Below, piece after piece: positions 1,936 to 2,183 of a DNA stretch of 5,046 nucleotides (position 1 is its first letter; every line of letters begins with the position of its first letter). The notes under the pieces are model-generated. The model was not told the origin of the DNA. It did no database searches and was given only the letters and a program-made list of their open reading frames with translations. The position numbers and the translations under genes are program-made. Source of the stretch: a virus (lineage: Duplodnaviria > Heunggongvirae > Uroviricota > Caudoviricetes); the IMG/VR virus record IMGVR_UViG_2703718811_000010; one strand, 5' to 3'.

Positions 1936-2112
1936 TGACAAGAAAACATGCTAATCGCATAACAAGTTTAAAGAATGAGGCCAGAGGGTCGGACCGTTTC
2001 TCTGCCCCTTTATATAACTAATCTTTAACATTTCCGGCTTTACGATAACTTAAGGTTATTACCTACAGTTATTCCGAATTGAAATAATCCGTCACATTAA
2101 ATAAAACAAAAG

Positions 2113-2130
2113 AATAATAATAATAATAAT
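2113..2130. repeat. Trinucleotide microsatellite (AAT)6
   Basis: AATAATAATAATAATAAT at 2113-2130, about 23 bp upstream of the terminator hairpin at 2153-2183. Confidence 0.95.
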
Positions 2131-2152
2131 CTTCTACCCTTATCCAATCTTT

Positions 2153-2183
2153 ACTGCTGTGCGCCAACACAGCAGTTTTTTTT
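2153..2183 (+). terminator. Rho-independent terminator on the plus strand (T1)
   Basis: Stem ACTGCTGTG (2153-2161) / CACAGCAGT (2168-2176), 6-nt loop CGCCAA, then T8 (2176-2183). Most likely ends the transcript of the 1756-1917 gene after a 3' UTR of about 235 nt. Confidence 0.7.

What the first reader, a model, noticed from the sequence alone, without database searches (positions are those of the whole stretch)
2040..2183. Second terminator module resembling the first, with an (AAT)6 microsatellite where a -10 element would lie
The sequence before terminator T1 (TTGAAA at 2079-2084, then A/T-rich DNA, (AAT)6, TCTTCT, hairpin, T8) parallels the T2 module (TTGAAA, GATAATAAAAAAATAACAACAAT, TCTTCT, hairpin, T8), suggesting two diverged copies of one unit. 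In the T1 copy no clean -10 lies at the right spacing from TTGAAA, and the AAT repeat occupies that zone, so repeat length could set promoter strength (a classic phase-variation mechanism) or T1 may simply end the upstream small gene's transcript.
Basis: partly seen in the sequence, partly recalled or inferred. Interest (0 to 1): 0.45.

Follow-up and report, generated by a model that had tools for sequence, protein, structure and literature searches.

The report
HnrS-type prophage small RNA gene
The "terminator module" is a variant copy of HnrS, a recently described prophage small RNA that silences the host gene hha. The AAT repeat encodes the RNA's 5' end rather than part of a switchable promoter, so this is a new member of a known family and not a new mechanism.

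Summary
One placement is wrong. A -10 at 16-18 nt from TTGAAA (2079-2084) falls at about 2101-2108 (TAAAAC), whereas (AAT)6 starts at 2113.

T1 is homologous to HnrS (EcOnc10-12), a 66-nt Hfq-bound sRNA of E. coli O157 prophages that represses hha. It lies in the same place (between Rz and cos, after the DUF3950 gene ylcI) and has the same -35 block, the same CUUCUACC seed complementary to the hha ribosome-binding site, and the same terminator. By homology the RNA starts at about A2114, so the repeat is transcribed as an A-A-N tract, probably an Hfq distal-face site.

In 15 loci of this allele type the repeat has 5 (12 loci) or 6 (3 loci) units. Changes cannot alter -35/-10 spacing. Phase variation of the promoter is therefore not supported.

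The window's allele has lost HnrS's 15-nt complementarity to mazF. It always travels with the T2 paralogue, whose 5' end resembles the GcvB-binding seed of AgvB.

Verdict: a new member of a known sRNA family, of moderate to low interest.

The parts
2074..2084 (+). Conserved promoter block CCGAATTGAAA; the -35 hexamer TTGAAA is at 2079-2084
   Evidence: Invariant in all HnrS-type alleles. Also present as GAGTTGAAA or GAATTGAAT upstream of T2-type modules.
2102..2107 (+). Candidate -10 hexamer TAAAAC, 17 nt after the -35
   Evidence: Aligns with TAAAAA of Sakai HnrS, where the same spacing puts +1 at the A that gives the published 66-nt RNA. This is inferred, not mapped here. A nearby alternative is TTAAAT at 2097-2102, which reads TAAAAT in some alleles. 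Either choice starts transcription at or before the repeat.
2113..2130 (+). (AAT)6 microsatellite, which encodes the 5'-terminal AAU (A-A-N) tract of the predicted sRNA
   Evidence: TRF finds 6.0 copies, 100% perfect. It is homologous to AUAACAAUAAUAAU at the 5' end of HnrS. Among 15 type-C loci there are 5 units in 12 and 6 units in 3. The predicted RNA contains 5 consecutive perfect A-R-N triplets.
2114..2183 (+). Predicted HnrS-family sRNA (allele type C), about 70 nt
   Evidence: Homology to Sakai HnrS/EcOnc12: 80.5% over 112 nt, E=2e-17. The ends are inferred from the published 66-nt length, which rests on dRNA-seq and Term-seq.
2131..2138 (+). Seed CUUCUACC, complementary to GGUAGAAG at the hha ribosome-binding site
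   Evidence: The hha leader was read from K-12. The same 8-bp duplex (-12.1 kcal/mol) forms for types A, B and C. Pairing at the hha RBS (AGAAG) was shown by compensatory mutations for canonical HnrS. The seed is invariant in all alleles.
2139..2152 (+). Divergent post-seed segment (CUUAUCCAAUCUUU), ending in a U-rich stretch before the hairpin
   Evidence: In type A this segment completes a perfect 15-nt complement of the mazF 3' end (CTACCCAATCAGTAC). In the window that complementarity is lost: -12.0 against -27.1 kcal/mol.
2153..2183 (+). Intrinsic terminator and Hfq proximal-face module: 9-bp stem, 6-nt loop, U8 tail
   Evidence: Two of 7 consensus stem pairs show compensatory double changes between T1- and T2-type sequences. 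The tail is 7 or 8 T among alleles.
2719..2746 (+). T2 promoter: TTGAAA, 16-nt spacer, GATAAT
   Evidence: Matches 10 of 12 consensus positions.
2753..2822 (+). Predicted T2-type paralogous sRNA (about 70 nt): AUAACAACAAUAC..CUUCUGCAUGUGCC.., then hairpin 2789-2815 and U8
   Evidence: A paralogue of T1. It follows every type-B or type-C HnrS module by 636-654 nt wherever the held sequence reaches far enough. It also occurs alone in ETEC1732. The start is inferred from the -10.
1756..1917 (+). ylcI/ynfO-family (DUF3950) gene, co-oriented and immediately upstream. Its transcript probably also ends at T1.
   Evidence: Annotation of relatives. The scan of 1400-3100 found no + strand terminator before T1.
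1548..1559 (-). Lambda-type cosN 12-mer (GGGCGGCGACCT). It places the ylcI/sRNA cluster at the right end of the phage chromosome, transcribed against the late operon.
   Evidence: Read directly. Identifying it with lambda's cohesive end rests on my own knowledge.

Best explanation
Positions about 2074-2183 are a self-contained small-RNA gene of the HnrS family, carried as a 'moron' at the right end of a lambdoid prophage. It lies between Rz and cos, just after the DUF3950 gene ylcI, and is transcribed against the late operon.

A sigma-70-type promoter (TTGAAA, 17 nt, TAAAAC) would start transcription at about A2114. The intrinsic terminator (2153-2183) ends it, giving an RNA of about 70 nt: 5'-AU(AAU)5-CUUCUACCC-UUAUCCAAUCUUU-hairpin-U8.

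The single-stranded CUUCUACC seed pairs with GGUAGAAG at the ribosome-binding site of hha. This blocks translation of Hha, the partner of H-NS, and so relieves silencing of horizontally acquired genes, as shown for canonical HnrS.

The (AAT)6 repeat is not a promoter element. It encodes the RNA's 5' A-A-N tract. [quoted passage not shown]

The 5-versus-6 unit polymorphism comes from replication slippage. It lengthens the RNA's 5' end by 3 nt without touching promoter geometry.

- **Shown here:** homology, synteny, and conservation of the seed and the terminator.
- **Shown by others, for type A only:** expression, Hfq binding and hha repression.
- **Inferred:** the transcription start in this allele, its expression, and the Hfq role of the AAU tract.
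For: **Identity of the Sakai reference**
- The Sakai Sp9 locus lies at the published EcOnc12 coordinates, allowing for an assembly offset of about 128 nt.
- It carries TTGAAA-17-TAAAAA-6-A, and from that A to the last U is exactly 66 nt, the published HnrS length.
- It contains CTACCCAATCAGTAC, the perfect complement of the last 15 nt of mazF (verified), as the paper reports.
- It contains CUUCUACC, complementary to the hha RBS.

**The window's T1 as a homologue**
- T1 matches such loci at 80.5% over 112 nt (E=2e-17) in 568 of 5426 E. coli genomes and 71 Stx phages.
- The gene context is the same each time.
- The -35 block, the AAN tract, the seed and the terminator are invariant across alleles, while the post-seed segment diverges.
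- The hha duplex is identical for all three allele types.
- The terminator stem shows compensatory changes.
- The 5' region is predicted to be unpaired.

**The AAU tract**
- The predicted RNA has 5 consecutive perfect A-R-N triplets, against 4 in HnrS and 2 in AgvB.
- A-R-N repeats are the in vivo Hfq distal-face motif and were found in the 5' regions of the prophage sRNAs AgvB and AsxR.
- Class II sRNAs such as MgrR use such tracts.

**Repeat census:** 12 loci with 5 units and 3 with 6.
Against: - There are no expression data for this allele or this strain.
- The -10 (TAAAAC) lacks the highly conserved final T, so the start site is inferred only from homology and from a published length. I could not see the published sequence or figure.
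- Alone, the hha duplex is not better than shuffles (fraction 0.09-0.20). Its significance rests on the published compensatory mutagenesis of type A.
- The HnrS paper does not discuss an ARN tract or distal-face binding. For MgrR, removing the A-rich tract had little effect on stability in vivo.
- Rfam has no HnrS model, so no independent covariance-model test was possible.
- The host's pathotype (LEE status) is unknown, and the prophage is defective.
Confidence: 0.78

Rival explanations
1. Phase-variable promoter: slippage in (AAT)n changes promoter geometry or strength and switches the downstream transcript on and off.
For: - The repeat is real and non-random.
- Its length differs among near-identical prophages: 5 versus 6 units on at least three different backgrounds, and once within a single genome (L075 and L076).
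- The -10 at canonical spacing is imperfect.
Against: - The repeat starts 28 nt after the -35 and 5 nt after the -10 position, at the site homologous to the mapped HnrS 5' end.
- No -10-like hexamer lies downstream of the repeat (CTTCTACCCTTATCC).
- Unit changes at the end of a perfect array alter neither the spacer nor the first 15 transcribed bases.
- Only two lengths were seen in 15 loci.
- In the far more common type A and B alleles (60 copies) the tract is interrupted (AACAATAATAAT) and showed no length variation.
Confidence: 0.04
2. T1 is only the terminator and 3'UTR of the ylcI mRNA. No independent sRNA is made from this allele.
For: - No other + strand terminator lies between the ylcI stop (1917) and T1.
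- The module always follows ylcI in HnrS-type loci.
- The -10 is weak.
Against: - For the homologous Sakai loci the paper reports mapping the 5' end with dRNA-seq, a method that marks transcription start sites. It also reports a discrete 66-nt RNA on northern blots.
- The -35 block is invariant across alleles and paralogues.
- The T2-type paralogue has a near-consensus promoter (10/12) and occurs without any ylcI gene in ETEC1732.
- Even a 3'UTR-derived RNA would carry the same seed and function.
Confidence: 0.1
3. T1 is an HnrS-family sRNA gene, but the AAU tract is a functionally neutral A/T-rich leader. The 5/6-unit polymorphism is then ordinary microsatellite noise with no effect on Hfq binding or regulation.
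For: - Canonical HnrS works with an interrupted, shorter tract.
- Removing the A-rich tract of MgrR barely changed its stability in vivo.
Against: - The AAN register is conserved in all HnrS alleles and in T2 (AUAACAACAAUA) despite divergence elsewhere.
- Length is confined to 5-6 units in 15 loci, while the neighbouring heptamer repeat ranges from 2 to 8.
- ARN tracts are Hfq contact sites in the related prophage sRNAs AgvB and AsxR.
Confidence: 0.3

Closest known systems
HnrS (EcOnc10/11/12) of E. coli O157:H7 Sakai prophages Sp9, Sp10 and Sp12 (Poudyal et al., PLoS Pathog 2026, PMC13502914)
   Same: - Position in the prophage: Rz, then the sRNA, then ylcI, then cos/terminase, convergent with the late operon.
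- The -35 block and the 5' AAN tract.
- The CUUCUACC(C) seed against the hha RBS.
- The terminator hairpin and U-tail.
- Overall about 80% identity.
   Different: - The tract is a perfect (AAU)5-6 repeat instead of AACAAUAAUAAU.
- The predicted RNA is about 70 nt, not 66.
- The post-seed segment differs, so the 15-nt mazF complementarity is lost.
- The loop and the lower stem differ.
- It is always followed by a second paralogous module (T2), whereas canonical HnrS is a single module.
- Expression and function of this allele are untested.
AgvB/AsxR/EcOnc03 'anti-sRNAs' of EHEC prophages (Tree et al., Mol Cell 2014, PMC4104026; Rfam RF02702 and RF02703)
   Same: - Very short, Hfq-associated prophage sRNAs with ARN motifs in a 5' targeting region and an intrinsic terminator.
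- T2's 5' end, AUAACAACAAUA, is nearly AgvB's AUAACACAACAAUA.
- T2 can pair with the same GcvB R1 segment: -22.1 against -23.7 kcal/mol for AgvB.
   Different: - The conserved 3' region of about 42 nt that defines that family is absent.
- There is no Rfam hit at E<=1.
- The prophage position differs: the right end near cos rather than the PR'/Q moron site.
- T1 shows no GcvB complementarity above chance.
Class II Hfq-dependent sRNAs (ChiX, MgrR, CyaR, McaS)
   Same: A single-stranded ARN-repeat tract plus a U-tailed terminator in one short RNA, predicting contact with both the distal and the proximal face of Hfq.
   Different: There is no sequence homology. Class membership is defined by behaviour in Hfq face mutants, which was not tested for HnrS or for this allele.
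Promoter-located simple-sequence contingency loci, such as (TA)n between -35 and -10 of Haemophilus influenzae hifA/hifB, or poly-G/poly-C spacers of Neisseria porA and opc (from my own knowledge)
   Same: A perfect short tandem repeat close to a promoter, with copy-number polymorphism among isolates.
   Different: Here the repeat lies outside the -35/-10 spacer, in transcribed DNA. Only 5 or 6 units are seen, and no spacing-dependent element follows it.

Membership tests
HnrS sRNA family | Encoded in the late region of a lambdoid or Stx prophage (here: between Rz and cos/terminase, after the DUF3950 gene, antisense to late transcription) | tested here: met
   Window ORFs. Annotated relatives and the Sakai Sp9 locus share the same layout. 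The paper states 'within the late genes'.
HnrS sRNA family | Sequence homology to the Sakai HnrS gene | tested here: met
   80.5% over 112 nt, E=2e-17, against O157 and Stx-phage loci. See alignment A4.
HnrS sRNA family | [quoted passage not shown] | tested here: met
   CUUCUACC at 2131-2138 is a perfect complement of GGUAGAAG, which lies 4 nt before the hha AUG. The duplex is identical for types A, B and C. Regulation itself was not tested.
HnrS sRNA family | Perfect 15-nt complementarity to the 3' end of mazF (the most abundant CLASH partner; no function detected) | tested here: not met
   Type A -27.1, type B -21.5, window type C -12.0 kcal/mol, the last no better than shuffles. The authors do not treat this as the functional target, so I regard it as an allele difference rather than an exclusion.
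HnrS sRNA family | Primary transcript of about 66 nt ending at an intrinsic terminator | tested here: inconclusive
   The terminator is confirmed. The 70-nt length and the start at about 2114 are inferred by homology only, and no RNA data exist for this allele.
HnrS sRNA family | Hfq association | not testable with these tools
   Sequence features fit (U8 tail, a U-rich stretch before the hairpin, an ARN tract), but binding needs an experiment.
AgvB/AsxR anti-sRNA family | Highly conserved 3' region of about 42 nt (..GUAUCUCAUGC..UUGCCCGAACCCAYUCGGGC..) | tested here: not met
   Published sequences share no such region with T1 or T2. There was no hit to RF02702 or RF02703 at E<=1.
AgvB/AsxR anti-sRNA family | Located in the moron site 3' of PR'/Q | tested here: not met
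   The modules lie downstream of Rz, next to cos.
Promoter simple-sequence-repeat phase variation | The repeat lies between -35 and -10, or in an operator, so that unit changes alter promoter geometry | tested here: not met
   The repeat spans 2113-2130, the -35 is at 2079-2084 and the -10 position is 2101-2108. By homology the repeat is at or after +1.
Promoter simple-sequence-repeat phase variation | Wide, frequent copy-number variation among closely related isolates and within populations | tested here: inconclusive
   5 units in 12 loci and 6 units in 3, with at least three independent 5/6 changes but no other lengths. Variation within a population needs sequencing reads.
Class II Hfq sRNAs | Dependence on both the distal and the proximal face of Hfq | not testable with these tools
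   Only the sequence prerequisites were seen.

The most novel reading that the evidence does not exclude
The tandem T1/T2 pair is a two-sRNA cassette built on one scaffold, with seeds exchanged between families.
- T1 keeps the HnrS anti-hha seed.
- T2 carries an AgvB-like AACAACAA seed and may act as a GcvB sponge.
- The slippage-prone (AAU)5-6 tract tunes how strongly the RNA occupies the six A-R-N pockets of the Hfq distal face. That would be a simple-sequence 'rheostat' acting on chaperone binding of an sRNA rather than on a promoter.
- Canonical single-copy HnrS would then be a deletion product of this cassette. Its terminator looks like a T1/T2 chimera, with a U-G wobble and T2's downstream flank.
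Probability: 0.12. Interest if true: 0.6.

Novelty: new member of a known kind. Interest (0 to 1): 0.33.

Why it matters
HnrS was only recently shown to let prophages counteract Hha/H-NS silencing of virulence genes. That work treated it as one sequence present in several copies. This window shows that the family has distinct alleles:
- The anti-hha seed is invariant.
- The mazF-complementary segment is dispensable.
- The 5' A-A-N tract can become a slippage-prone microsatellite.
- Two of the three allele types travel with a second, undescribed paralogue that has a different seed.

These observations help to define which part of HnrS is under selection. They provide natural variants for testing ARN-tract length against Hfq binding. 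They also point to more prophage sRNAs in an interval that genome annotation leaves blank. For the scan itself, the lesson is that short A/T-rich repeats next to orphan terminators in prophage intergenic DNA are more likely to be sRNA 5' regions than promoter switches.

Tried and rejected
- **Rfam scan** of the whole window at E<=1 gave no relevant hit. There is no HnrS model, and AgvB and AsxR did not match.
- **Full-text search** for four diagnostic sequence strings, each in DNA or RNA spelling, found 0 papers.
- **HnrS sequence:** the HnrS paper has no supplements held, and neither version prints the sequence. I reconstructed it from coordinates, length, and the mazF and hha complementarity.
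- **Pas sRNA preprint:** those sRNAs lie at other prophage positions, and the preprint mentions neither HnrS, ylcI nor terminase. Rejected as the identity.
- **Metagenome scan** with a type-C-specific pattern found 0 hits. The general pattern gave 8 loci, all of the 63-nt (type A) length.
- **Species-representative genome scan** gave one hit, a chance match inside GC-rich coding DNA of a Bryobacteraceae MAG. No evidence for the family outside E. coli phages.
- **T2 against hha or mazF:** no better than shuffles.
- **T2 against GcvB:** close to the AgvB control in energy but not significant (fraction of shuffles as good 0.08-0.13). Kept only as a lead.
- **GTCACA-16-AATAAT** was considered as an alternative promoter that uses the repeat as its -10. 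It cannot be excluded, but it too gives no dependence of spacing on copy number. Promoter-like sites in the region are not enriched overall (6 found against 4.2 +/- 2.1 expected).
- **ORFs in the T1-T2 spacer** (for example 2216-2455): unannotated in all relatives, and disrupted by indels that are not multiples of three in the 76%-identical homologue. Treated as non-coding.

Full report
**1. What is in the sequence**

TTGAAA lies at 2079-2084 and a perfect (AAT)6 at 2113-2130. TCTTCT is at 2130-2135. A 9-bp hairpin at 2153-2176 runs into a T-run ending at 2183. As RNA the hairpin is much more stable than shuffles (-14.0 kcal/mol, z -4.5 to -5.8).

The T2 module has TTGAAA (2719-2724), a 16-nt spacer, GATAAT (2741-2746), CTTCT (2772-2776), a hairpin (2789-2815) and T8 (2815-2822).

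The two modules are real paralogues.
- They share 82 of 125 aligned columns.
- The alignment score is 32, against -12.4 +/- 5.9 for shuffles (z=7.5, 0/1000) and against a maximum of 2 for 120 other windows of the same intergenic DNA.
- Two of seven terminator pairs differ by compensatory double changes between them.

A perfect trinucleotide repeat of this length does not arise by chance (0/2000 shuffles).

One detail is wrong. The -10 position for this -35 is 2101-2108 (TAAAAC, 17-nt spacer), and the repeat begins 5 nt beyond it.

**2. Context**

The window is the junction of the right and left ends of a lambdoid prophage. The minus strand carries lysozyme, an antirepressor-like gene, Rz/Rz1, a lambda-type cosN (GGGCGGCGACCT, 1548-1559), a Nu1-like small terminase and a fragment of tail gene I. 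The plus strand carries a 53-aa DUF3950 gene (ylcI/ynfO family, 1756-1917), followed by T1 and T2.

Positions 943-5046 are 99.6% identical to an intact prophage of bovine strain OkiPb01678. Positions 1-942 are not, so this prophage has lost its head and tail genes.

The interval 1950-3020 carries no annotated feature in any of the related RefSeq records I fetched.

**3. Identity**

T1 on its own has homologues of about 80% identity in 568 of 5426 complete E. coli genomes, mostly O157, O145, O111, O121 and O55. It also has them in 71 Stx-converting phages. In the four such loci I fetched and in Sakai Sp9, the homologue lies just downstream of the DUF3950 gene, on the same strand and convergent with Rz.

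The literature search led to HnrS (EcOnc10/11/12). It is a 66-nt Hfq-bound sRNA with three identical copies in Sakai prophages Sp9, Sp10 and Sp12. It represses hha by pairing at its RBS (AGAAG), which was proved by compensatory mutations. It is also perfectly complementary to the last 15 nt of mazF.

I tested this identity directly.
- mazF ends GTACTGATTGGGTAG in K-12. Its complement, CTACCCAATCAGTAC, is present in the Sakai Sp9 and BP-4795 modules.
- The published Hfq-CRAC coordinates for EcOnc12 fall inside the Sp9 module once the assembly offset of about 128 nt is allowed for.
- The hha leader reads ..CCAUAGGUAGAAGUAUG, and the module carries CUUCUACC.
- In Sakai the layout is TTGAAA, 17 nt, TAAAAA, 6 nt, then A. 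From that A to the last U is exactly 66 nt.

The T1-type module is therefore the hnrS gene.

**4. Where the AAT repeat sits**

Aligned to Sakai hnrS, the window's -35 block is identical. TAAAAC aligns with TAAAAA. The HnrS 5' end, AUAACAAUAAUAAU-CUUCUACCC, aligns with AUAAUAAUAAUAAUAAU-CUUCUACCC. The predicted start is A2114, and the RNA would span 2114-2183 (70 nt).

A second -10 candidate lies at 2097-2102. It reads TTAAAT here, TAAAAT in some alleles and TAGAAT in Sakai, but it is only 12 nt from TTGAAA. The published length also leaves an uncertainty of about 4 nt. Even so, every option starts transcription at or before the repeat. The same holds if the first AATAAT acts as a -10 (GTCACA-16-AATAAT).

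So the repeat is transcribed and lies outside the -35/-10 spacer. Adding a unit to a perfect array also leaves the first 15 transcribed bases unchanged. Copy number therefore cannot tune initiation.

**5. Allele structure and repeat census**

Across the loci collected from genomes, IMG/VR and metagenomes there are three HnrS allele types.
- **Type A (canonical):** 47 copies, always a single module.
- **Type B:** 13 copies, tract AAUAACAAUAAUAAU.
- **Type C (this window):** a perfect AAU repeat.

Using the window's own YlcI variant as a handle, I assembled 15 type-C loci. Twelve have 5 AAT units and three have 6: the window, L071 and L076. The 6-unit alleles sit on three different backgrounds, with heptamer counts of 6, 8 and 4. 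One genome carries a 5-unit and a 6-unit copy. Slippage has therefore recurred, but only between two lengths.

By contrast, the (ACTGACA)n repeat at the ylcI stop codon ranges from 2 to 8 in the same loci.

Types A and B showed no length variation in the tract.

**6. What differs in this allele**

The hha duplex is identical in types A, B and C (-12.1 kcal/mol). The mazF duplex falls from -27.1 (A) to -21.5 (B) and -12.0 (C, chance level). Selection thus appears to hold the anti-hha seed but not the mazF complement. This agrees with the authors' failure to find a function for the mazF interaction.

**7. Likely role of the AAU tract (inference)**

The tract is predicted to be single-stranded and forms 5 consecutive perfect A-R-N triplets, against 4 in Sakai HnrS.
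- A-R-N repeats are the Hfq distal-face motif in vivo. They were identified in the 5' regions of the prophage sRNAs AgvB and AsxR, where AgvB competes with mRNA for the distal face.
- Class II sRNAs such as MgrR bind both faces, which helps them compete for Hfq.

I therefore propose that the tract, together with the U8 tail, gives Class II-like binding, and that 5 versus 6 units changes at most this property and the seed's distance from the 5' end. This is untested. For MgrR, the A-rich tract mattered little for stability in vivo.

**8. T2**

Every type B or C module is followed 636-654 nt downstream by a T2-type module wherever the sequence extends far enough. T2-type also occurs alone, without ylcI, in a porcine ETEC, so it is an independent gene unit. 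It is rarer than HnrS, being present in 135 of 5426 genomes.

- **Predicted RNA:** its 5' end, AUAACAACAAUA, is almost AgvB's AUAACACAACAAUA.
- **GcvB R1 pairing:** it can pair with the same GcvB R1 segment, at -22.1 against -23.7 kcal/mol for AgvB. The Watson-Crick run is 7-9 nt, against 10 for AgvB.
- **Significance:** the pairing is not significant against shuffles.
- **Family membership:** T2 lacks the 3' region that defines the AgvB/AsxR family and got no Rfam hit.

This is a lead, not a finding.

**9. Evolutionary note (inference)**

In type A loci the sequence after the terminator is the sequence that follows T2 here. The type A stem pairs CUGCUGUG with CACGGCAG through a U-G wobble, combining a T1-like 5' arm with a T2-like 3' arm. 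That is what recombination between the two tandem terminators, deleting about 640 nt, would produce. The opposite direction (duplication) is not excluded.

**10. Verdict**

The 'two copies of one unit' reading is right. The phase-variable promoter reading is not supported.

The feature is a variant allele of a recently published prophage sRNA, together with an undescribed paralogue. It is a useful annotation and a modest extension of HnrS biology, not a new kind of system.

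Noticed in passing
window 1899-1941: A perfect heptanucleotide repeat (ACTGACA)6 overlaps the stop codon of ylcI. Copy number is 2, 4, 5, 6 or 8 in 15 related loci, far more variable than the AAT tract. With 3 or more units the ORF always ends ..TTDN* inside the second unit. With 2 units it ends ..TTDKKTC* (56 aa). In type A and B prophages the repeat is absent and the protein is 70-75 aa.
   Followed up: partly
window 364-1436 (minus strand): A Nu1-like small terminase ORF (909-1436) abuts a lambda tail-I-like ORF (364-912). 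Positions 1-942 do not match the otherwise 99.6%-identical intact prophage. The prophage has therefore lost its entire head and tail region, like nohD-aaaD of DLP12 (the DLP12 comparison is from my own knowledge). L072 (GCA_025988505.1) shows the same fusion.
   Followed up: partly
window 2753-2822 (T2): The predicted 5' end of T2, AUAACAACAAUA, nearly equals the GcvB-targeting seed of the anti-sRNA AgvB (AUAACACAACAAUA). It can pair with GcvB R1 at -22.1 kcal/mol, against -23.7 for AgvB, although this is not significant against shuffles.
   Followed up: partly
L009 2149-2190 (Sakai HnrS terminator) compared with window 2153-2183 and 2789-2830: The canonical HnrS terminator looks like a T1/T2 chimera, with a U-G wobble in the stem. 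It is followed by T2's downstream flank, which suggests that single-module hnrS arose by recombination between the tandem terminators.
   Followed up: partly
window 2098: A T/A polymorphism among type-C alleles (CATTAAAT versus CATAAAAT) creates a better -10-like hexamer, TAAAAT, 12 nt after TTGAAA. The same position reads TAGAAT in Sakai. Its role in start-site choice is unknown.
   Followed up: no
window 2524-2542 (minus strand): A terminator-like hairpin with a T-run lies on the opposite strand in the T1-T2 spacer. It might mark a convergent transcript, but the segment is poorly conserved in the type-B spacer.
   Followed up: no
window 1700-1904 compared with plasmid records: The ylcI region matches 'plasmid' records assigned to Staphylococcus aureus (CP113245.1, 3570 bp, 86.8%). 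Records of several other unrelated genera also matched the wider 1700-3050 query. This looks like contamination or vector-derived lambda-like DNA in those records.
   Followed up: no
window 2176-2183 and 2815-2822: Both terminator T-runs are themselves length-polymorphic (7 or 8 T) among otherwise near-identical prophages.
   Followed up: no
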